Shown: positions 21,735-30,994 of the stretch, piece by piece | How the letters are laid out: the number at the start of each line of letters is the position of its first letter | How positions within the stretch are numbered: the stretch's first letter is position 1 | DNA from: an uncultured SAR86 cluster bacterium | Lineage (GTDB): Bacteria > Pseudomonadota > Gammaproteobacteria > Magnimaribacterales > AG-339-G14 | DNA: 64,000 nt | Direction: 5' to 3' | NCBI GenBank assembly: GCA_902635045.1 | Contig: CACPMT010000001.1 | Coordinates: 30,993 to 94,992 of the forward strand | Program-made: the position numbers and the translations under genes | Notes under the pieces: generated by a model | Seen by the model: the letters and a program-made list of their open reading frames with translations, nothing else | The model's database searches: none | What the model was told of the DNA's origin: nothing

Positions 21735-21810
21735 GCCCAGATAGCTCAGTTGGTAGAGCAAAGGACTGAAAATCCTTGTGTCGGTGGTTCGATCCCACCT
21801 CTGGGCACCA
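21735..21810 (+). tRNA. tRNA-Phe (anticodon GAA), CCA encoded
   Basis: Manual cloverleaf: acceptor GCCCAGA/TCTGGGC, D stem GCTC/GAGC, anticodon stem AAGGA/TCCTT, loop CTGAAAA, T stem GGTGG/CCACC, T loop TTCGATC. Confidence 0.95.
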
Positions 21811-21838
21811 TTCTGACAGCATTCTTAAAAATAAAACT

Positions 21839-21875
21839 GGTGAACAGTTGGTGAACAGGCACTCTTCTGTTCACC
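21839..21875. repeat. GGTGAACAG motif cluster, islet 1 left end (2 direct + 1 inverted copy)
   Basis: GGTGAACAG at 21839-21847 and 21850-21858, CTGTTCACC at 21867-21875. Confidence 0.9.
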
Positions 21876-21877
21876 AA
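21848..21877 (-). terminator. 11-bp-stem hairpin immediately after the HIT stop codon (possible terminator)
   Basis: TTGGTGAACAG-gcactctt-CTGTTCACCAA. On the minus strand a T-rich run (GTTTTATTTTT) follows, but only after about 10 nt. Confidence 0.35.
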
Positions 21878-22285
21878 TTAATATGACTGTTTTTCAGGTA
21901 TTACCCCTCTTACTCCTCCTCTTGGATCATCCATATCTCCTTTTCTTCTTGGAATTAAATGAACATGACAATGCATTACAGTCTGACCCGCATCGGAACC
22001 GTCGTTAATTCCAATATTAAATCCTGTGATAAGATTGTCTTTTTCCATGAGTGCTTCTCTTTCAATTTCAAGAAGTTCAAATATTGCCTCTTTCTCATTC
22101 TTTTCTAGGTCAAAAAATGATTGAACATGTCTTTTAGGAATAAATAATGAATGCCCTTCTGTTACTGGATACAAATCCTTAAAAGAAAGAGCAAAATTAT
22201 TTTCTCTCTCTACTCTTGATTGCTCTAAATTACAAAAAATACAATCTTTCAAATTGACTCTCCAAATATCTCTGATGGTTCCCAT
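21878..22285 (-). CDS. HIT-family nucleotide hydrolase/transferase
   Basis: Histidine triad HCHVHLIPR (H105/H107/H109 in ORF-track numbering) and N-terminal CIFC. Likely true start is TTG 22252, overlapping the upstream stop as TTGA with GGAGAG 5 nt upstream (124 aa). Confidence 0.85.
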   Translation of the reverse strand: MGTIRDIWRVNLKDCIFCNLEQSRVERENNFALSFKDLYPVTEGHSLFIPKRHVQSFFDLEKNEKEAIFELLEIEREALMEKDNLITGFNIGINDGSDAGQTVMHCHVHLIPRRKGDMDDPRGGVRGVIPEKQSY

Positions 22286-23265
22286 TTTATAGGAATATGA
22301 CTTACGGAATTGTTAAACATCTTTTGTAGAAAATCTTTTCTTTCTGTATCTGTTTTGCCAGTCTGATTAATGATTGTTTCCCTTAGAGGGTGATGACTTT
22401 CTATATAAAAATTATTCCTTTTATTCAATGCTTCCAGATAGTTAATTTTAGGTATTTTTTCAAATTTTCCTCCTGATCCCCTATTACATTCACGACATGT
22501 TAAAACTAAATTCCAAATTTGATCAACCTCTGACAGTCCGTAATCTTTTAATATGTGAGGAAAGAAATGATCTACATCGCATGAATTTTCATTTCCTTGC
22601 TGAATTGAAATATGTTTGTAGCAATAAAAACATTTACTTTTTTGATAACCATTTAGAGCATCTCTTGAGGAGGTTACGTTTTGTCTTCTTTTCTTATCAT
22701 CTAATACAAAAAGACATTCATCTTCATCATCATTAATAATTTCTAATAATGATGGATTAACATTCAGTGAGATTGCTGTTTCCCAAAGATTCCATCGAGA
22801 TTCTGCCTCATTTTTTAAATTTCCATAAATGTCTTTCTCTTTTAATTTATAAAAATTGTCTGTGAGGATAATAGATTTGTTTTCTTTTCTGTTGTCTGTA
22901 AAAAATCTAGTTGTTTCTTCTCTTGCTACTATGTGAAATGCATCAATGACATTAACAAAACCCATTCTTATAGTTATTTGCTTTAATTCTTCTTCATTAA
23001 TCTCTGCATTGTTAAATCTTTTACATGCATCTAAGAACTTACTAGTTTTTGATGTAACTTGTTTTTCATTGTTTAATAAGTGATCACATATATTTTTTGC
23101 AAATGGAACTGCCAGATTTTCAATTTCTATTTCTGAACTGGAAGTATCGATCTCAAGAAGTGACTTTGCTAGAGCAAATTTATATGAGGCAACATTTCTT
23201 CCAAGCAGGATAATTGACCTCCATGAAGTATCAAGACTAGGATCTTTATCTACAAATAATTGCAT
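22249..23265 (-). CDS. HNH (beta-beta-alpha-Me, zinc-ribbon) endonuclease with unassigned ~200-aa N-terminal domain
   Basis: C212-FY-C215 ... C229-DVDH233 ... N252 ... C257-RE-C260-N261. The N-terminal region is not recognisable to me. Confidence 0.8.
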   Translation of the reverse strand: MQLFVDKDPSLDTSWRSIILLGRNVASYKFALAKSLLEIDTSSSEIEIENLAVPFAKNICDHLLNNEKQVTSKTSKFLDACKRFNNAEINEEELKQITIRMGFVNVIDAFHIVAREETTRFFTDNRKENKSIILTDNFYKLKEKDIYGNLKNEAESRWNLWETAISLNVNPSLLEIINDDEDECLFVLDDKKRRQNVTSSRDALNGYQKSKCFYCYKHISIQQGNENSCDVDHFFPHILKDYGLSEVDQIWNLVLTCRECNRGSGGKFEKIPKINYLEALNKRNNFYIESHHPLRETIINQTGKTDTERKDFLQKMFNNSVSHIPIKWEPSEIFGESI

Positions 23266-23277
23266 GTATTAAGTTTA

Positions 23278-23347
23278 TGTTCACCTAAACAAATTATAGC
23301 AACAGATTCTCAATGTTGTTGGTGAACAGGTAGGTGAACAGAAGAGT
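23278..23347. repeat. GGTGAACAG motif cluster, islet 1 right end (1 inverted + 2 direct copies)
   Basis: TGTTCACC at 23278-23285; GGTGAACAG at 23321-23329 and 23333-23341. GGTGAACAGAAGAGT (23333-23347) is the exact reverse complement of 21861-21875. Confidence 0.9.
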
Positions 23348-23390
23348 CTGTAATATGCATTCTTATGAGGTTGTTATTGTCGAGTCAAGA

Positions 23391-23436
23391 ACTGAAAATC
23401 CTTGTGTCGGTGGTTCGATTCCACCTCTGGGCACCA
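23391..23436 (+). repeat. direct repeat of tRNA-Phe 3' part (anticodon loop to CCA), att-like copy 1
   Basis: 45/46 identical to 21765-21810 (T at 23420 versus C at 21794). Confidence 0.95.
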
Positions 23437-23475
23437 ACGAGATAACATTTTTAAAACCAACTCAATAATACTAAA

Positions 23476-23492
23476 ATACCCCCAATGGGTAT
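23476..23492. promoter_or_regulatory. candidate CsoR-family operator
   Basis: ATACCC-ccaat-GGGTAT is the only GC-rich palindrome in this AT-rich leader. It overlaps ATG 23485, and a CsoR-type repressor is encoded in the same operon. Confidence 0.55.
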
Positions 23493-24084
23493 AAGAATTA
23501 TTTGTCTTTTGTCTATCATGTCGTTTGGACTTGATGCTAGACCTATATCTTACACAGGTGGTTCAACCATAATGGCGTTTTCAGATAACATAAAAAATTC
23601 TATCTACTACCATTATTCGCCATCCTATAAATACTCAATTGGGATTGAAGTTATAAGAAATAAATATTTTAAAGATAATTATTCATATGTTAGATATACA
23701 TACTTAATAAATAGAAAGAATACTGAAAACTCTCAAAGAAATTTGTATTTTCAATCTGGTGTTAGTTCAAAAGGTTTTGATGAATTTTTTTATGGTATAC
23801 ATGGAGATTGGGAAACAAGAAGATTATTTGTTGGTTTTGGAATAAAGGAAACTGAAAGAAAAATTCAAGACTATTTAGAACAATACTATCAAATAGGAGT
23901 TGCGCCCTATCTTGGTGATTATGGTGACTTGCACACATGGATAATGATTAAGGCAAAAGATAATTCTCTTGAGAATAAGTGGTCAACTTACCCTGTATTA
24001 AAATTTTTTAAAGGAAATGTTCTTATGGAATTTGGTTATAGCAAAAAAACTAAATGGGATGTTCATCTAATGTATAGATTTTGA
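23485..24084 (+). CDS. secreted small beta-barrel-like (OMP-like) protein, function unknown
   Basis: Signal-peptide-like N-terminus (MGIRIICLLSIMSFGLDA), alternating aromatic/polar strand pattern, C-terminal ...MYRF typical of OM beta-barrels. Confidence 0.4.
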   Translation: MGIRIICLLSIMSFGLDARPISYTGGSTIMAFSDNIKNSIYYHYSPSYKYSIGIEVIRNKYFKDNYSYVRYTYLINRKNTENSQRNLYFQSGVSSKGFDEFFYGIHGDWETRRLFVGFGIKETERKIQDYLEQYYQIGVAPYLGDYGDLHTWIMIKAKDNSLENKWSTYPVLKFFKGNVLMEFGYSKKTKWDVHLMYRF

Positions 24085-24494
24085 GAGGAAAAATGAAAAA
24101 TATATTATTAATTCTTATTTTTACTTCAATGGCATGGGGAGAAACCCCTCATGACAGCATGCATCATACTCATGAAGGACATGTTCATGAAGAATTTGTA
24201 GATGGTAAGAAATTAGAAGTTGATCCTGAGAGATTTGATAAATTCGTTATGGATCTTGAAGATACCCAAATTGCAATCGTGAATGTTCAAGGTATGGTGT
24301 GTGATTTTTGTGCTAGAGGTATTGAAAAAATATTTAAAAAAGACACCAATGTAAAAAAAGTAGACGTTGATCTGAGCAAAGGAAAAGTTTTAATCGCATA
24401 CAATGTTGCTCATGAAATAATCTTTGATGATATCAAGGAAAAAATTCTAATAAACGGACAAAATGCAATTGACATGAAGGTTATTAATCTTTAA
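24081..24494 (+). CDS. periplasmic heavy-metal-associated (HMA, MerP/CopZ-like) protein with His-rich N-terminus
   Basis: Signal peptide, then HDSMHHTHEGHVHEE, then HMA motif GMVCDFCARGIEK. Alternative start ATG 24093 (GAGAGG SD). Confidence 0.75.
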   Translation: MRGKMKNILLILIFTSMAWGETPHDSMHHTHEGHVHEEFVDGKKLEVDPERFDKFVMDLEDTQIAIVNVQGMVCDFCARGIEKIFKKDTNVKKVDVDLSKGKVLIAYNVAHEIIFDDIKEKILINGQNAIDMKVINL

Positions 24495-24499
24495 AAATT

Positions 24500-24865
24500 A
24501 TGCAAGATAAATCAGCAAATTTTTTATCCTTGTTTGCCTCGTCATCAACTTTAATATGTTGTGCACTTCCTTCATTATTTATTGCAGTTGGTGCAGGTGC
24601 TTCTTTTGCAAGTTTAATAACAGTCTTTCCATTTTTAATTGTCTTATCTCAATATAAATTATCTATAACAATATTTGCTTCAGTGACCATCATATTTGCT
24701 GGATATGTGAATTATAAAACTTATTATATGCCTTGCCCCACAGATCCTGAGTTAGGCAAGTTATGCATGCAAACTAGAAAACAATCAAGATATGTTTATT
24801 ACATTTCAGTTGTATTGTTTATTTTTGCTACAATATTTACTTATTTAGTTCCTAAATTCGTATGA
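24500..24865 (+). CDS. MerT-like small membrane metal transporter (CC motif in TM1)
   Basis: 121 aa, about 3-4 TM. LICCALP in TM1 and a second Cys pair PCPTDPELGKLC in a loop, the same layout as MerT. Confidence 0.5.
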   Translation: MQDKSANFLSLFASSSTLICCALPSLFIAVGAGASFASLITVFPFLIVLSQYKLSITIFASVTIIFAGYVNYKTYYMPCPTDPELGKLCMQTRKQSRYVYYISVVLFIFATIFTYLVPKFV

Positions 24866-25122
24866 AAAATCCATGCCATAAAGAAGAAATTCCTAGTCTT
24901 AACAGAATTGAGGGACAAGTTCGTGGAATTGCTAACATGATTGATGAAGAAAAGTATTGCATTGATATACTCAATCAAATCAAGGCAGTTAGAAATGCTC
25001 TTACAAGTATTGAAGGAAAAATATTAAAAAGACATATGAAAGAATGTGTTAAGGAAGCATTAAATGATCAGAAGGGTTTTGACAATAAGGTTGAGGAAAT
25101 ATTAAAAACCCTTAAAAGATAG
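24862..25122 (+). CDS. CsoR/RcnR/FrmR-family metal-sensing transcriptional repressor
   Basis: 86 aa. RIEGQVRGIANMI, and a C...H...C ligand pattern (YCIDIL ... RHMKEC). Confidence 0.8.
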   Translation: MKNPCHKEEIPSLNRIEGQVRGIANMIDEEKYCIDILNQIKAVRNALTSIEGKILKRHMKECVKEALNDQKGFDNKVEEILKTLKR

Positions 25123-25140
25123 ATTAAATTACTGGTTTCA

Positions 25141-25207
25141 TGTGTGCGCTCTTTGTATCAATGCTGTGAAGGTTTTTATCATCTTCGTGCACACAGGTGT
25201 GCACACA
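25141..25207. repeat. GTGCACACA motif cluster, islet 2 right end
   Basis: TGTGTGCGC at 25141-25149 (inverted, 8/9). GTGCACACA at 25187-25195 and 25199-25207. Confidence 0.85.
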
Positions 25208-25259
25208 AATGGTCTGAAAGGTAATACTTTAAAGGGATTATGACTTACGAACAAAGAAC

Positions 25260-25305
25260 TGAAAATCCTTGTGTCGGTGGTTCGATTCCACCTCTGGGCA
25301 CCACA
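25260..25305 (+). repeat. direct repeat of tRNA-Phe 3' part, att-like copy 2
   Basis: 46/46 identical to 23391-23436, and 45/46 to the tRNA. Confidence 0.95.
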
Positions 25306-25358: not shown

Positions 25359-26321
25359 GTGAGATTTTTTAAAAAAGAAAGAAAACTTTATCCATCCATT
25401 GAGCCGTTTGATTCAGGCTTTATCAAAAAAGGAATTCATGAAATCTATTACGAACAGTGTGGAAATCCTAAAGGCAAGCCTGCAGTTTTTTTACATGGAG
25501 GACCAGGGGGAGGAGCTGGAAAACTTTCTAGAAGATTTTTCAATCCAAAAAAATATAGAATAATTCTGTTTGATCAAAGAGGCTGCGGTAAAAGCAAACC
25601 TCATACTTGCTTAGAAGAAAATACCACTTGGCACCTAGTAGATGATATTGAATCTATTAGAAAAAAACTACAAATAGAAAAATGGTTAGTTTTCGGAGGA
25701 TCTTGGGGAAGCACTCTTGCTCTAGCTTATGCTCAAAAACACCCTGAGCATGTTTCTGAACTTATTCTAAGAGGTATTTTTATGCTTAGAGAAAAGGAAC
25801 TCAAGTGGTTCTATCAGTATGGAGCAAGTGAAATATATCCTGAAGCTTGGCAAGGATTTATAAATGAAATTCCTGAAGAGGAAAGATTTGATCTAATTGA
25901 TGCCTATAGAAAAATTTTTAATAGCAAGGATAAAGAAAAAAAGCTGTCTGCTGCTAAGGCTTGGTCTAAGTGGGAAGCATCTGCAAGCTATATTAATCAT
26001 AACCCAAGCGCTGTAAAAGATTCTGTAAATGCAGAGTTTGCTTTGGCATTTGCGCTCATTGAAAACCACTATTTTGTAAATAAAGGTTTTTTGGATTACG
26101 AAAATCAACTTTTAGATAACATAGATCTTATCAGGCATATTCCAGCAATAATAATCCAAGGAAGATATGATGTGGTTTGTCCTTCCACCACTGCATACGA
26201 ACTTTATTCAAAATGGCCTGAAGCTGAACTTAAAATTGCACCTTTCTCTGGACACTCCGCCTTTGAAAAAGAAATTACCGATCTACTAGTCGATGCTACA
26301 GATATTTTTGGCAAGAACTAA
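25359..26321 (+). CDS. pip: prolyl aminopeptidase (proline iminopeptidase)
   Basis: HGGPGGG and GGSWGSTLAL motifs. GTG start. Confidence 0.88.
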   Translation: MRFFKKERKLYPSIEPFDSGFIKKGIHEIYYEQCGNPKGKPAVFLHGGPGGGAGKLSRRFFNPKKYRIILFDQRGCGKSKPHTCLEENTTWHLVDDIESIRKKLQIEKWLVFGGSWGSTLALAYAQKHPEHVSELILRGIFMLREKELKWFYQYGASEIYPEAWQGFINEIPEEERFDLIDAYRKIFNSKDKEKKLSAAKAWSKWEASASYINHNPSAVKDSVNAEFALAFALIENHYFVNKGFLDYENQLLDNIDLIRHIPAIIIQGRYDVVCPSTTAYELYSKWPEAELKIAPFSGHSAFEKEITDLLVDATDIFGKN

Positions 26322-27793: not shown

Positions 27794-28717
27794 TTAAACG
27801 TGATTAAAAAAATAATTTTTGTGAATATTTTCATCTAATAGATGAATTCGTCTCTGCAAATAATCTAAAAAATTATGAAGTTGAATATCATCGTAACTTT
27901 CCACCTTTGCTGAAAATACTCGAACATTTAATTTATTAACTGCATCAAGAACATTAGTATTATTCGGAAGAGAGGTAAGACTTTTTTCTGTAATAGTTAA
28001 GCACCTATATATCGAACGAGGAAAATTCTCATTTTTAAGGAGAAAATTTATCACGTCTCCCCTTTCTATTTCTCCCCGTACTTCCTTTCTAAAAGACTCA
28101 TGAGCAGATAAAGTTCTGAGCATGCTAACCCACTCTAAAGTTGGAAAGTCATGAGTTTGTTCTTTTGATTGCATAATACAAAGACTATCTATAATTCTAG
28201 AAATCATATCTATTCTTTCTATGAATCTTCCTAATCTCATGAATTCAAAAGCATATCCTCTTGAAAAGTTATCAGAAATAATTCCGAAGAATCTTTGTGA
28301 GCCCGAAATTACATTATAAATATATGAAGCTCTTTTCCTTCTATTGGATGAAGAAGCCATACCAGTTTTAAATTCATTAAATAAATTATTTAGTTGCTCA
28401 GTTGCTGACCTTGGCAAATCATCTTTGATAGCTCTAGCGTTATAGCGAGCCATATCTAAAGAAGAAATTATAGAATTTACATTTTCTTTATCATCACCTA
28501 AAAACCTAACAGCGCTGATTTCGCTATATTCTGAATATCTTTTTTTAAAGAATTTTTTTGAATCCATAGTCTCAATTATTGGTTTCCAACCTAAAGATTG
28601 ATCTCCAGGGAAATCCAACATTAACTCAGAGTGAACATTGATCATTCTTGCCGTATTTTCTATTCTCTCAACATATCTTGTGAGCCAATATAGATGCTCT
28701 GCGTCTCTACTTAACAT
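27794..28717 (-). CDS. alpha-E domain protein (COG2307/DUF403)
   Basis: MLSRDAEHLYWLTRYVERIENTARM N-terminus. Immediately follows the circularly permuted ATP-grasp gene. Confidence 0.8.
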   Translation of the reverse strand: MLSRDAEHLYWLTRYVERIENTARMINVHSELMLDFPGDQSLGWKPIIETMDSKKFFKKRYSEYSEISAVRFLGDDKENVNSIISSLDMARYNARAIKDDLPRSATEQLNNLFNEFKTGMASSSNRRKRASYIYNVISGSQRFFGIISDNFSRGYAFEFMRLGRFIERIDMISRIIDSLCIMQSKEQTHDFPTLEWVSMLRTLSAHESFRKEVRGEIERGDVINFLLKNENFPRSIYRCLTITEKSLTSLPNNTNVLDAVNKLNVRVFSAKVESYDDIQLHNFLDYLQRRIHLLDENIHKNYFFNHV

Positions 28718-30160
28718 TTAAACTATCCATGTGTCTTTGCTTCCTCCGCCTTGGGAAGAATTTACTACTGTTGAGCCCTTTTTAAGTGCGACTCTTGTCA
28801 ATCCGCCTACAGTTACGTATTGTTTTTCTCCTGATAAAATGAAAGGTCTCAAATCAAGATGTCTGGGCTCAAGGTTGTCTCCAGAATATGTAGGTGTGGT
28901 TGATAAAGATATTAATGGCTGGGCAACGAAATTTCTTGGGTTATTCATTATTTTTCTAATAGTCGACTCTTTTTCTGATCTTGAGCAATTTTTGCCTATT
29001 ACAATTCCATAACCGCCAGATTCAGCAACGGGTTTAATTACCATATCTTTAAAATTATTAAAAACATGATCTCTATGTTCTTTATTAGTTAGGAGAAAAG
29101 TTTTTATATTTCTAATGATTGGCTCTTCATTTAAAAAATATTTAATCATTTTCGGGACAAACGCATAAACTGCTTTATCGTCTGCAATTCCACAACCTGG
29201 AGAATTTACAATCGCAACTTTCTTTTGTTGCCAAGCCTTTATCAATCCTTTGACCCCTATGGCTGAATTGGGATTTCCTTGATCAGGATCAAGGTAGTCA
29301 TCGTCGATTCTTCTATAGATAACATCAACCTTAACTAAACCTTCTATTGTCTTCTTATAGACATAACCTTCTTTACCAATTATCAAATCCCTACCTTCAA
29401 CTAAGTCAATCCCCATTTGTTGAGCTAAGAAGGAATGTTCATAATATGCGGAATTGAATATTCCTGGAGTAAGCAAAACTATTTCAGGATGCCTGGACCT
29501 AGAGTAACTAACTGAAGCCAAAGTTTCATAGAGCTTAGTCGGATAAGCATCTATGGGAGTGACGCCGTATTGGTAAAATAATTCAGGGAAAACTCTTTTC
29601 ATAATCATTCTATTTTCCAACATGTAACTCACACCCGACGGAACTCTTAAATTATCTTCAAGAACATAAAACTTTCCATCTTGGGCTTTGATCAAATCTG
29701 ATCCACAAATATGCGACCATGTATTATGTTTTAGCTTCCTATCAACGCAATACTGTTTATAGGCGGGAGAATCCAATACCAGATTTTTGTCCATATCGCT
29801 TTCATTTAAAAAGTTTTGTTTGTTGTAACAATCTTCAATGAACATATTTAGAGCTTTTACTCTTTGTTTCAATCCTTTTTCAACCTGTTGCCATTCAGTT
29901 TGTCGAATTAACCTTGGAATAAAATCTAATGGCCACATTCTATCTTGTCCATCGTCGGCCTCATCGGAATAAACTCTAAATGATATTCCCATAGACTTTA
30001 TAGCCGTCTCAGTTGCTAGATTTATTTCCTTTAAATCTTCTATTGATAAAGACTCCAAAAAAGTTCCAATTTTTTTTGAATGTCCCCTTAGAGTGTTTTG
30101 TGGTGTAACATATTCATCGTAAAAAGAAGAACTAGGATATTTTTTCCAAGAAATTTTCAT
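28718..30160 (-). CDS. circularly permuted ATP-grasp type 2 protein (COG2308)
   Basis: 480 aa with family-typical blocks (LRVPSGVSYMLENR, KPV.ESGGYG). Abuts the alpha-E gene with no gap. Confidence 0.8.
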   Translation of the reverse strand: MKISWKKYPSSSFYDEYVTPQNTLRGHSKKIGTFLESLSIEDLKEINLATETAIKSMGISFRVYSDEADDGQDRMWPLDFIPRLIRQTEWQQVEKGLKQRVKALNMFIEDCYNKQNFLNESDMDKNLVLDSPAYKQYCVDRKLKHNTWSHICGSDLIKAQDGKFYVLEDNLRVPSGVSYMLENRMIMKRVFPELFYQYGVTPIDAYPTKLYETLASVSYSRSRHPEIVLLTPGIFNSAYYEHSFLAQQMGIDLVEGRDLIIGKEGYVYKKTIEGLVKVDVIYRRIDDDYLDPDQGNPNSAIGVKGLIKAWQQKKVAIVNSPGCGIADDKAVYAFVPKMIKYFLNEEPIIRNIKTFLLTNKEHRDHVFNNFKDMVIKPVAESGGYGIVIGKNCSRSEKESTIRKIMNNPRNFVAQPLISLSTTPTYSGDNLEPRHLDLRPFILSGEKQYVTVGGLTRVALKKGSTVVNSSQGGGSKDTWIV

Positions 30161-30253
30161 TTAAATTTATAATTATTTACTTATTAAATATAACAGCTAA
30201 TTGATTGTTTTTTTGTTCCAAAACAAGGCGTCAATTGCTCAAAAAAATAACAT

Positions 30254-30994
30254 ATGACTTATTGTCTTGCTATAAAAGTTGAAGAAGGTTTAGTTTTTGC
30301 CTCAGACTCCCGAACCAATGCAGGTTTAGATAATATTGGATCCTATACAAAAATGTTTACCTACAATATCGGTGACAGAGCTTTCGTAATTTTAACTGCT
30401 GGCAATTTAGCCACCTCGCAGGCCGTCTATCATCAAATAGAAAAAGACCTCGAGAATAATACAACCGAGATTAACTTAAACCTTTGCGAGGACATTGAGG
30501 CCGTAGCCGATTATGTTGGGAAAATAAGCATTGAACAACAATCAAAAAATCATGATCCCACCGAACAGATCGATCAAAGTACTGCCCTTTTGGGGTCTCA
30601 TTTTATTGTAGGAGGACAAATTAGAGGTCAAGAACCTAACTTGGTTTTGGTATATCCAGAGGGAAATTTTATATATGTAGCTGATGAAACCCCTTTTATA
30701 CAAATAGGCGAAACAAAATATGGAAAACCGATTTTAGATAGAATGATAGTACCCAATACTCCACTTGGAGATTCCGCTAGAGCAGCATTGTTGTCTTTTG
30801 ATTCGACAATGAAAAGTGACTTGACCGTTGGCCCACCTATTGATTTTGTTGTTTTTAAAAGAGATCAAATTAATTTGAATTTTCAAGATCAACTAAAGTT
30901 GGACTCCCCTTTCTTTAAAGAACTTTCTTCTATTTGGGCGGAGCAGCTAGATAACGCAATCCACGCTTTACCAAAATTTAATTGGGAAGAATAA
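30254..30994 (+). CDS. Anbu-type proteasome beta-subunit homologue (COG3484)
   Basis: N-terminus MTYCLAIKVEEGLVFASDSRTNAG, with Thr directly after Met (Ntn hydrolase). Divergent from the ATP-grasp/alpha-E pair. Confidence 0.8.
   Translation: MTYCLAIKVEEGLVFASDSRTNAGLDNIGSYTKMFTYNIGDRAFVILTAGNLATSQAVYHQIEKDLENNTTEINLNLCEDIEAVADYVGKISIEQQSKNHDPTEQIDQSTALLGSHFIVGGQIRGQEPNLVLVYPEGNFIYVADETPFIQIGETKYGKPILDRMIVPNTPLGDSARAALLSFDSTMKSDLTVGPPIDFVVFKRDQINLNFQDQLKLDSPFFKELSSIWAEQLDNAIHALPKFNWEE

What the first reader, a model, noticed from the sequence alone, without database searches (positions are those of the whole stretch)
23437..25259. Mer-like transport cassette without a reductase or efflux pump, under a CsoR-type repressor
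Seen in the sequence: a tightly coupled 4-gene operon with 4-nt overlaps or a 5-nt gap.
- A secreted OMP-like 199-aa protein ending in YRF.
- A periplasmic protein with an HDSMHHTHEGHVHEE stretch plus an HMA domain (GMVCDFC).
- A 121-aa membrane protein with CC in TM1 and a second Cys pair in a loop, the MerT layout.
- An 86-aa CsoR/RcnR-family repressor with a C/H/C ligand set.
- No MerA, MerR, P-type ATPase or multicopper oxidase is present.

Established knowledge: MerP and MerT deliver metal inward, and CsoR-type repressors derepress on Cu(I) or other metal binding.

Inference: this would be a mobile outer-membrane-to-cytoplasm thiophilic-metal uptake or hand-off route induced by the metal itself. 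That is an unusual logic for an importer, and this combination is not one I recognise.
Basis: partly seen in the sequence, partly recalled or inferred. Interest (0 to 1): 0.6.

Follow-up and report, generated by a model that had tools for sequence, protein, structure and literature searches.

The report
Copper-sensing mobile metal-relay cassette in SAR86
A 1.9-kb self-regulating four-gene unit, inserted next to a tRNA gene in an abundant ocean bacterium, encodes an outer-membrane pore, a periplasmic metal carrier and a mercury-transporter-like membrane protein under a copper-type sensor; it has no pump or detoxifying enzyme and appears never to have been studied.

Summary
Four co-oriented genes (23485-25122) encode four products:
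- a 12-stranded outer-membrane barrel with no Pfam or NCBIfam family;
- a secreted His-rich HMA protein (GMVCDFC);
- a 121-aa MerT-superfamily protein with invariant CC and C-x9-C pairs;
- a CsoR-type repressor with the C33/H58/C62 ligand set.

New findings:
- The unit lies between 50-nt direct repeats of the tRNA-Phe 3' end, so it is an integrase-less islet in a SAR86 genome.
- A canonical CsoR operator (ATACCCCCAATGGGTAT, TAC-N9-GTA) overlaps the first ATG. It is conserved in about 80 related loci whose upstream DNA has otherwise diverged.
- Conserved -35 and -10 positions put the ATG 7 nt after the -10, which implies a leaderless mRNA.
- The four genes keep the same order in 84 of 87 loci. 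Hosts are mostly SAR86, with low-GC copies in Porticoccaceae and Parvibaculaceae.
- No P-type ATPase, MerA or multicopper oxidase motif occurs in the window or in 1.25 Mb of those loci.
- A barrel-HMA-MerT-like trio without CsoR is widespread in other Proteobacteria.

Best reading: a Cu(I)-derepressed, energy-independent thiol and histidine relay across the envelope, probably moving metal inward as in mer. Direction and metal are inferred, not shown. It is a new variant of known kinds.

The parts
21735..21810 (+). Intact tRNA-Phe (GAA), the integration target
   Evidence: ARAGORN. Its 3' 43 nt recur twice downstream, against 0 expected by chance.
21811..23386 (-). Islet 1, a separate cargo: HIT-family gene (21878-22285) and HNH-nuclease gene (22249-23265)
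   Evidence: Pfam HIT 1.6e-16 and HNH_4 7.6e-7. PADLOC gives weak ThsC-like HIT and PtuB-like HNH matches. The related locus L009 has the same flanks but different content here.
23387..23436 (+). Left direct repeat: copy of the tRNA-Phe 3' end (att-type repeat)
   Evidence: Identical to the right repeat over 50 nt. Two differences from the intact tRNA.
23450..23477 (+). Putative sigma-70 promoter: -35 TTTAAA (23450-23455), 16-nt spacer, -10 TAAAAT (23472-23477)
   Evidence: Consensus scan, not significant on its own. Across 72 distinct homologous promoters, T at -13 is 96% conserved, A at -12 is 94% and T at -35 is 78%. Clear TTGACA-17-TATAnn versions occur in L065, L072, L073 and L042.
23476..23492 (+). 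CsoR-type operator ATACCCCCAATGGGTAT (TAC-N9-GTA), overlapping the -10 element and the start codon
   Evidence: One match in the window against 0.02 expected. Positions -9 to +8 are about 100% conserved while DNA further upstream diverges. It matches the S. lividans csoR operator ATACCCCTGGTGGGTAT and the TAC-X9-GTA rule (PMC3902906).
23485..24084 (+). Outer-membrane 12-stranded beta-barrel, 199 aa, signal peptide, C-terminal YRF; unnamed family
   Evidence: Polar residues R77, N79, Q84, N86, Y88, D108, E110, R112 and E182 are conserved family-wide.
24093..24494 (+). Periplasmic metallochaperone, 133 aa: signal peptide, His-rich HxxMHHxHEGHxH segment, CopZ-like HMA domain with GMVCDFCA
24500..24865 (+). 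MerT-superfamily inner-membrane protein, 121 aa, three helices; CC (20-21) in helix 1, and C79/C89 in the basic loop between helices 2 and 3
24862..25122 (+). CsoR-family repressor, 86 aa; ligand set C33/H58/C62, Y32 and E78, and an N-terminal HPCH-type tail
25254..25303 (+). Right direct repeat: copy of the tRNA-Phe 3' end; end of the islet
   Evidence: The conserved chromosomal flank (alpha/beta hydrolase gene, 25359-26321) follows, as in L008-L010 and L022.

Best explanation
The stretch 23437-25303 is an integrase-less cargo islet left by site-specific integration at the 3' end of tRNA-Phe in a SAR86 gammaproteobacterium. It is one self-contained operon.

Regulation. A sigma-70-type promoter is packed into the 47 nt after the left repeat. 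Its -10 element overlaps the left arm of a canonical CsoR operator. The ATG of the first gene lies inside the operator, 7 nt after the -10, so the mRNA is probably leaderless. The last gene encodes the CsoR-type repressor. Apo-CsoR should occupy the operator and block initiation, then leave when it binds its metal, most likely Cu(I). The unit would therefore be autoregulated and metal-induced.

Structural genes. They place one protein in each envelope layer: a 12-stranded outer-membrane channel, a soluble periplasmic carrier with a His-rich site and a CxxC site, and a three-helix MerT-type inner-membrane protein with two Cys pairs.

Transport. No ATPase, RND, CDF or redox enzyme belongs to the unit, so metal can only move by ligand exchange down an affinity gradient. 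By analogy with MerP to MerT, the likeliest direction is periplasm to cytoplasm. That would clear thiophilic metal from the periplasm and hand it to cytoplasmic thiols, to CsoR itself, or to host systems.

Shown: gene content, conserved residues, the operator and promoter conservation, absence of pump or reductase nearby, the repeats, and spread between lineages. Inferred: operator binding, the identity of the metal, the leaderless start and the direction of transport.
For: Unit conservation: the same four genes in the same order occur in 84 of 87 loci.

Operator:
- It occurs once in the window against 0.02 expected.
- It is at the promoter in about 80 loci, with only 9 one-mismatch chance sites elsewhere in 1.25 Mb.
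- Conservation is near 100% from -9 to +8. T-13, A-12 and T-35 are also conserved, while the rest of the upstream DNA is not.
- It is identical in form to the experimentally defined Streptomyces CsoR operators and the TAC-X9-GTA rule.

Repressor:
- PF02583 E 5.8e-28.
- The best solved relatives are the Cu(I) sensors of S. lividans and Geobacillus, with Cys/His/Cys aligned.
- C33, H58, C62, Y32 and E78 are invariant.

MerT link:
- 25 of 25 homologues hit PF02411 over its full length.
- Both Cys pairs are invariant.

Other components:
- The HMA protein has a signal peptide and invariant GMVCDFCA and HEGHxH.
- The barrel is supported.

No energy-coupling or detoxifying partner:
- No DKTGT, MerA or multicopper-oxidase motif in the window or in the 87 loci.
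- No such gene among the Pfam-annotated gene calls of the five distant loci.

Copper or heavy-metal association of distant trios: heavy-metal MerR-type sensors read through into the barrel ORF, and weakly CopL-like Cys/His proteins lie upstream.

Hint of an inward, reductive route: a 225-aa PepSY_TM-like membrane protein abuts csoR in 31 of 87 loci.

Mobility.
Against: - Nothing here shows direction. An inducible importer of a toxic metal with no sink gives positive feedback, and an induced outer-membrane pore would admit more metal.
- The window's 121-aa protein is below MerT's curated threshold (21.6 vs 32.9 bits). No solved MerT exists for a fold comparison, and its model is only moderate (pLDDT 68.5).
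- Only one of five barrel models was confident.
- The CsoR has an invariant extra His6, usually with Cys5 and often His3, in its N-terminal tail. The carrier is His-rich and has Asp inside its CxxC. Both features would also suit Ni, Co, Zn, Cd or Hg.
- Whether the host genome carries copA, cueO or cus elsewhere could not be checked.
- The promoter hexamers in this AT-rich DNA are not significant on their own (13 found against 11.1 expected).
Confidence: 0.5

Rival explanations
1. Periplasmic buffering and outward release. The His-rich HMA protein acts as a periplasmic copper sponge, like CusF, PcoE or CopK. The barrel is an exit pore, as proposed for Caulobacter PcoB. The MerT-like protein only anchors or loads the carrier. 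The net effect would be protection without import.
For: CsoR regulons normally encode protective functions, not uptake. A copper-resistance outer-membrane barrel with a His/Met-rich disordered region is reported to act in efflux (PMC12509749). The His-rich segment and the conserved acidic and basic lumen residues fit a cation path.
Against: No energy source for export across the inner membrane is present. The MerT-like protein and both its Cys pairs are invariant, which argues for a transport role through the membrane. The barrel has no sequence match to the CopB/PcoB family, and PcoB was not among the top 50 fold matches.
Confidence: 0.2
2. The architecture is as described, but the physiological metal is not copper. 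It could be Hg(II), Ag(I), Cd(II)/Zn(II) or Ni(II)/Co(II).
For: The only characterised relatives of the 121-aa protein carry Hg(II). The CsoR has an invariant N-terminal His, usually with a Cys beside it, and InrS-type nickel sensors are among its solved relatives (5fmn, E 1.3e-10). In the read-through barrel ORFs, the MerR-type sensors score equally as ZntR, CueR, MerR or CadR. The carrier has HEGHxH and Asp within its CxxC.
Against: The operator is the copper-CsoR type. The closest solved and curated relatives are copper sensors: 4adz, 4m1p and RicR at 1.4e-21. The HMA domain is closest to CopZ. From general knowledge, open-ocean Hg, Ag and Cd concentrations are far below copper.
Confidence: 0.2
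3. Sensing relay. The pore, carrier and MerT-like protein bring a trickle of external metal directly to the cytoplasmic CsoR. The cell then senses periplasmic or external copper early, with positive feedback and other regulon members elsewhere.
For: csoR overlaps the MerT-like gene by 4 nt (ATGA). A cytoplasmic Cys pair has no other obvious acceptor in the unit. The regulatory design is positive feedback.
Against: No second operator was found in the 64-kb window. In 1.25 Mb of related loci only one-mismatch chance sites occur away from the promoter. The distant trios lack CsoR altogether, so the trio has a function of its own.
Confidence: 0.1
4. Nutritional copper acquisition for cuproenzymes.
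For: It would be an energy-independent route from the outside to the cytoplasm. The PepSY_TM-like fifth gene could be a Cu(II) reductase, which is speculative.
Against: From established knowledge of the family, CsoR-type repressors release DNA when metal is bound. Expression would therefore rise with excess copper, not scarcity.
Confidence: 0.07
5. Decayed remnant of a larger mer or cop operon, with no function of its own.
For: It sits in a variable island with no integrase, among other fragments.
Against: The four intact genes, the operator and the catalytic-type residues are conserved across 66-99% identical copies in 84 of 87 loci and in hundreds of metagenomic clusters.
Confidence: 0.02

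Closest known systems
MerP-MerT mercury uptake module of mer operons (Tn21/Tn501)
   Same: A periplasmic HMA protein with a CxxC motif is paired with a roughly 116-121-aa three-helix inner-membrane protein. That protein carries a vicinal CC in helix 1 and a Cys pair in the cytoplasmic loop. There is full-length homology to PF02411. Both systems are metal-induced.
   Different: No MerA or MerR. Gene order is HMA then MerT-like; in mer operons merT precedes merP (my knowledge). The loop is C-x9-C. The score is below MerT's curated cut-off. The HMA domain is nearer to CopZ than to MerP and has a His-rich extension. An outer-membrane barrel is added. The regulator is CsoR, not MerR.
CsoR-CopZ-CopA copper efflux operons (B. 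subtilis, S. lividans, M. tuberculosis cso/RicR)
   Same: A CsoR with the Cys/His/Cys ligand set, a TAC-N9-GTA G/C-tract operator at the promoter, autoregulation, and an HMA chaperone in the operon.
   Different: No P-type ATPase. The HMA protein is secreted rather than cytoplasmic. The host is a Gram-negative gammaproteobacterium. The operator overlaps the start codon of a probably leaderless mRNA. csoR is the last gene.
CopC-CopD and PbrT: metal-induced inward transporters inside resistance operons (my knowledge, not tested here)
   Same: A periplasmic carrier plus a small inner-membrane protein is thought to bring the toxic metal inward as part of a resistance response.
   Different: The protein families are unrelated. 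Those systems sit beside an oxidase or a pump, which this unit lacks.
PcoB/CopB copper outer-membrane barrels
   Same: A small outer-membrane beta-barrel in a copper-responsive operon, with an acidic constriction and His-rich disordered sequence in the system (PMC9210255, PMC12509749).
   Different: No sequence match to the CopB family, and not among the top fold hits. Here the His-rich segment is on the periplasmic carrier, not on the barrel.
KdgM/NanC-type 12-stranded specific porins
   Same: The best solved fold match (TM-score 0.55-0.61, 12 strands, similar size).
   Different: 14% identity, no family match, and different conserved lumen residues.
tRNA-targeted cargo elements of marine bacteria (tycheposon-type islands)
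   Same: Tandem islets next to a tRNA gene, each bounded by partial tRNA repeats, carrying small adaptive cargo. The source describes successive integrations at one site (bioRxiv 10.1101/2020.12.28.424599).
   Different: No integrase or replication module lies in or beside the islet. The host is SAR86, not Prochlorococcus. Relatedness to tycheposons was not tested.

Membership tests
MerT (PF02411 / NF010314) | Sequence score above the curated family cut-off | tested here: not met
   Window protein scores 21.6 bits against a cut-off of 32.9, and 21.8 against 150 for the NCBIfam equivalog. However, 25 of 25 homologues hit PF02411 at E<=0.01, best 2.8e-8, over the full length.
MerT (PF02411 / NF010314) | About 116 aa with three transmembrane helices | tested here: met
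   121 aa. The AlphaFold2 model has helices at 2-36, 44-75 and 83-120, pLDDT 68.5.
MerT (PF02411 / NF010314) | Vicinal Cys pair in helix 1 and a second Cys pair in the loop between helices 2 and 3 | tested here: met
   C20, C21, C79 and C89 are invariant in 25 sequences down to 69% identity, and also in distant trios.
MerT (PF02411 / NF010314) | Encoded with merR and merA | tested here: not met
   No MerA motif in the window or in the 87 loci. No MerA or MerR gene among the Pfam-annotated gene calls of the distant loci.
MerT (PF02411 / NF010314) | Transports Hg(II) inward | not testable with these tools
   Needs uptake assays.
HMA metallochaperone (PF00403; CopZ/MerP) | HMA domain above cut-off with a GMxCxxC motif | tested here: met
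   34.6 bits against a cut-off of 24.8. GMVCDFCA is invariant.
HMA metallochaperone (PF00403; CopZ/MerP) | Equivalog-level identity to CopZ or MerP | tested here: not met
   CopZ 41.3 bits against 91; MerP 18.7 against 92.55. The protein also has a signal peptide and a His-rich extension that CopZ lacks.
CsoR, Cu(I)-sensing branch of PF02583 | Family match and Cys/His/Cys ligand positions | tested here: met
   97.6 bits against 22.8. C33, H58 and C62 are invariant and align with the ligands of S. lividans and Geobacillus CsoR.
CsoR, Cu(I)-sensing branch of PF02583 | Second-shell Tyr and Glu (Y35/E81 of M. tuberculosis CsoR; numbering from my knowledge) | tested here: met
   Y32 and E78 are invariant at the corresponding offset of 3.
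CsoR, Cu(I)-sensing branch of PF02583 | G/C-tract pseudopalindromic operator TAC-N9-GTA at its own promoter | tested here: met
CsoR, Cu(I)-sensing branch of PF02583 | Controls a copper efflux ATPase | tested here: not met
   No P-type ATPase motif in the window or in the related loci.
CsoR, Cu(I)-sensing branch of PF02583 | Cu(I) releases it from DNA | not testable with these tools
   Needs EMSA or ITC. The extra N-terminal His/Cys leaves the selectivity open.
Outer-membrane beta-barrel (12-stranded) | Signal peptide, even number of antiparallel strands, C-terminal aromatic residue | tested here: met
   Only one of five models was confident.
CopB/PcoB or KdgM sequence families | Profile match | tested here: not met
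   No Pfam or NCBIfam hit at E<=1.
tRNA-integrating mobile element | Flanking direct repeats of the tRNA 3' end | tested here: met
tRNA-integrating mobile element | Own integrase | tested here: not met
   The islet's four ORFs have no recombinase domain, and neither do the 12 other window ORFs scanned between 13.5 and 31 kb. ORFs elsewhere in the window were not scanned.

The most novel reading that the evidence does not exclude
The barrel, His-rich HMA carrier and MerT-like protein form a previously unrecognised, energy-independent, envelope-spanning route. It would carry copper from sea water into the cytoplasm by ligand exchange, and in SAR86 it has been captured as a plug-in cassette with its own CsoR switch. 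In effect this would be a 'mer logic' for copper, with an unknown cytoplasmic sink or with the sensor itself as acceptor. [quoted passage not shown]
Probability: 0.3. Interest if true: 0.75.

Novelty: new variant of a known kind. Interest (0 to 1): 0.6.

Why it matters
- SAR86 is among the most abundant heterotrophs of the surface ocean, where copper speciation limits or poisons plankton.
- The cassette occurs in hundreds of species-level genomes. The exact 121-aa product is found on 236 public contigs. Every component except the regulator and the HMA domain is annotated 'hypothetical'.
- It pairs a mercury-type thiol relay with a copper-type sensor and a new outer-membrane barrel family, with no pump. 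Either copper handling in streamlined marine bacteria follows a logic not seen in model organisms, or MerT-like proteins have a wider metal range than assumed.
- The packed promoter, operator and start codon is a neat example of a minimal, portable regulatory unit.
- A cultured SAR86 strain (HIMB1674, locus L020) carries the cassette, so the questions are directly testable.

Tried and rejected
- Fold and sequence searches for the MerT-like protein against the PDB gave nothing, because no MerT is solved.
- tblastn of the barrels against plasmids and phages found no match, and a scan of viral contigs for the MerT-like protein found no relative. The unit is therefore not a known plasmid or phage cargo.
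- Literature searches found nothing on this cassette. I searched MerT-like plus copper, SAR86 plus MerT/CsoR, and MerT/MerP/CopZ plus uptake. Apparent hits were author names. The two SAR86 genome papers do not mention copper or mercury genes.
- The 3' untranslated stretch 25118-25262 has no significant fold or terminator (z -0.03).
- 'Remnant of a larger operon' was rejected on conservation grounds.
- 'CsoR as a formaldehyde or persulfide sensor' was considered because public names say FrmR family. It is judged unlikely given the Cys/His/Cys set with Tyr/Glu and the copper-type operator.
Full report
**What is there.**

- Barrel. The first ORF (23485-24084, 199 aa) has a signal peptide and ends in YRF. 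With an alignment of 22 homologues, AlphaFold2 gives an N-terminal helix followed by 12 beta-strands. The best model has pLDDT 82.6 and pTM 0.75, but the other four models were poor, so the fold rests on one model. Foldseek against the PDB returns only outer-membrane barrels, led by the 12-stranded KdgM, FapF and intimin/invasin domains (TM-score 0.5-0.6). The protein matches no Pfam or NCBIfam model.
- Carrier. The second ORF starts at ATG 24093, after a GAGG Shine-Dalgarno sequence, not at the TTG of 24081. All homologues begin MK-, and the 133-aa product is an exact public gene call. It has a signal peptide, a His-rich stretch whose core HEGHxH is invariant, and an HMA domain (E 2.5e-8) with invariant GMVCDFCA. 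It scores nearer to CopZ (1.3e-10) than to MerP (1.9e-3), and below both curated cut-offs.
- MerT-like protein. The third ORF (121 aa) aligns over its full length to MerT, but below the curated threshold (21.6 vs 32.9 bits). All 25 aligned homologues hit PF02411, the best at 2.8e-8, and no other family recurs. C20-C21 in helix 1 and the PCP...C pair (C79, C89) in the basic loop before helix 3 are invariant.
- Repressor. The fourth ORF (86 aa) overlaps the third by ATGA and is a clear CsoR-family protein (E 5.8e-28). Its closest solved relatives are the Cu(I) sensors of Streptomyces lividans and Geobacillus, and Cys33/His58/Cys62 align with their ligands. These three residues, plus Tyr32 and Glu78, are invariant in 71 homologues. 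An extra His6 in the N-terminal tail is also invariant, usually preceded by Cys5.

**Origin and boundaries.** The nearest genome is a SAR86 single-cell assembly whose four cassette proteins are 95-99% identical to the window's (L008), and GC content is about 32%. A tRNA-Phe gene lies at 21735-21810. Its 3' end recurs at 23387-23436 and 25254-25303, against 0 matches expected by chance. The locus is therefore two tandem islets:

- a HIT plus HNH pair, then
- the metal cassette,

followed by a conserved hydrolase gene. Related SAR86 genomes keep the same flanks but differ in islet 1, or have the cassette directly after the tRNA (L009, L010, L022). Other lineages carry it inverted next to tRNA-Phe, or near tRNA-Ile, -Val, -Arg or -Ser. 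No recombinase is present in the islet or among the 12 other window ORFs scanned between 13.5 and 31 kb. Tandem integration at one tRNA site, leaving partial tRNAs, is the pattern described for cargo elements of marine Prochlorococcus. I did not test relatedness to those elements.

**Regulation.** This is the strongest new result. The sequence ATACCCCCAATGGGTAT (23476-23492) overlaps the first ATG.

- It occurs once in the window, against 0.02 expected.
- In 87 related loci the motif TACCC-N5-GGGTA sits at the same place in about 80. The remainder lack upstream DNA or have a 1-nt spacer variant.
- Only nine one-mismatch sites occur elsewhere in 1.25 Mb.
- A column-by-column profile of 72 distinct promoters shows near-100% conservation from -9 to +8, 96% and 94% at -13 and -12, and 78% T at -35. 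There is essentially none in between.
- The motif has the form of experimentally defined copper-CsoR operators: the S. lividans csoR site ATACCCCTGGTGGGTAT, the consensus ATATACCCCTNAGGGGTATAT, and the general rule TAC-X9-GTA (PMC3902906).
- Several loci show textbook TTGACA-17-TATAnn hexamers, with the -10 overlapping the left operator arm and the ATG 6-7 nt downstream. In the window the hexamers are TTTAAA-16-TAAAAT.

Sigma-70 promoters usually start transcription about 7 nt after the -10 (established knowledge). The mRNA is therefore probably leaderless, and the invariant N-terminal Met-Gly of the barrel is dictated by the operator. The whole control region fits in the 47 nt after the left repeat. 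This is inference from conservation, not a mapped transcript.

**Is a pump or reductase merely outside the islet?** No.

- No ORF with a DKTGT, MerA active-site or multicopper-oxidase motif exists in the 64-kb window.
- None exists within 8-10 kb of the cassette in the 87 loci.
- The Pfam-annotated gene calls around five more distant homologues (6-7 kb of flank each) show none either.
- The four genes are complete and in the same order in 84 of 87 loci, and the other three are cut by contig ends.

**Wider family.**

- A profile search of 1.84 billion representatives finds 616 barrel relatives. A second search finds at least 1,800 clusters, all unnamed.
- In alpha- and gammaproteobacterial chromosomes the barrel is followed by a short HMA protein with the same VCDFCA motif, and by a MerT-like protein with the same LCCALP and PCP...C motifs. 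These loci have ordinary Shine-Dalgarno leaders and no CsoR.
- Upstream there is often a small Cys/His-rich protein that resembles CopL weakly, below threshold.
- In two lineages a heavy-metal MerR-type sensor reads through into the barrel ORF.
- The barrel-carrier-MerT-like trio is thus the ancient unit. SAR86 added CsoR and a leaderless promoter.
- In 31 of 87 loci a 225-aa PepSY_TM-like membrane protein follows csoR directly. The window lacks it.
- In Porticoccaceae and Parvibaculaceae hosts the cassette is 8-13 GC points below its flanks, which indicates recent transfer. In a sponge symbiont it matches the host GC.
- It was not found on plasmids, phages or viral contigs.

**How it most likely works.** The shown facts are:

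- one protein per envelope layer;
- soft (Cys) and borderline (His) ligands in series;
- no energy-coupling protein;
- a copper-type repressor on its own promoter.

I infer a metal-induced, autoregulated ligand-exchange relay. By homology with MerP and MerT, and because the membrane potential favours inward cation movement, I favour periplasm-to-cytoplasm transfer of Cu(I). This would clear the periplasm or hand metal to cytoplasmic thiols, to CsoR or to host systems (confidence about 0.5 for the whole statement; lower for direction alone). Rivals are periplasmic buffering with outward release through the barrel, a different metal, a sensing relay feeding CsoR, and nutritional uptake. The published disagreement over whether PcoB imports or exports copper shows that direction cannot be read from such barrels.

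**Novelty.** Public records call the barrel and the MerT-like protein hypothetical, the carrier CopZ, and the regulator FrmR-family. I found no paper on the unit. Each part belongs to a known superfamily or fold. The combination, the missing sink, the new barrel family and the regulatory packing make it a new variant of known kinds rather than something categorically new.

Noticed in passing
window 21811-23386: A separate islet lies between tRNA-Phe and the first repeat. It holds a HIT-family gene (weak match to the PADLOC ThsC HIT-family model, E 1.7e-9) overlapping a 338-aa HNH-nuclease gene (weak PtuB-like matches). It may be a small anti-phage defence cargo. L003 has a HIT plus DUF3427/NOV_C pair in its island.
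   Followed up: partly
P0342 and P0353 (representative-library proteins; P0342 on a 2.9-kb JGI contig): Two distantly related 360-aa ORFs join a heavy-metal MerR-type regulator (CPGD...CP motif) in frame to the barrel, with no stop codon between. They are either true fusions, which would be topologically odd, or regulator genes that run into an internally initiated barrel gene. A 92-aa gene follows P0342.
   Followed up: partly
L040 8626-9303 and 30 other loci, directly after csoR: A fifth operon gene is present in about a third of the cassettes. It is a 225-aa protein with two transmembrane helices and a periplasmic PepSY-like domain, with conserved His9 and His179. PepSY_TM is just below its Pfam cut-off (27.6 vs 28.8 bits). 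It could be a reductase or an accessory factor. The window lacks it.
   Followed up: partly
L088 6512-6943; L090 6561-6959; L093 5607-5957: In alphaproteobacterial trios a small secreted or anchored protein precedes the barrel gene. It is rich in Cys, His and Met (for example MPCHE...GHCEGMCFCL) and ends in RPPK. The L088 and L090 proteins have weak sub-threshold matches to the CopL family (E 2e-4 and 5e-4). The 116-aa L093 protein was not scanned.
   Followed up: partly
window 24862-24882 (CsoR residues 1-7) and homologues: The N-terminal tail motif is (H)-P-C-H. His6 is invariant and Cys5 is present in most copies, in addition to the Cys/His/Cys site. This is unusual for copper CsoRs and could alter metal selectivity.
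   Followed up: partly
L013, L053, L054, L056, L058 (= L007): Cassette GC is 32-36% inside flanks of 44-48% in Porticoccaceae, Parvibaculaceae and other non-SAR86 assemblies. This indicates recent transfer from low-GC donors. Some of these are MAG contigs and could be mis-binned, but OZ251536 is a complete chromosome.
   Followed up: partly
L014, L016, L018, L019, L024, L026, L041, L045, L061, L062, L071, L081: In these SAR86 lineages the cassette lies next to tRNA-Phe in the opposite orientation to the window, again with partial tRNA repeats. This implies independent insertions or an inversion within the island.
   Followed up: partly
window 25123-25253: No terminator-like structure follows csoR (fold z-score -0.03). 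How the operon transcript ends is unclear.
   Followed up: yes
window 27794-30994: A neighbouring cluster holds an Alpha-E domain protein, a circularly permuted ATP-grasp protein and a proteasome-type subunit gene. It is unrelated to the finding.
   Followed up: no
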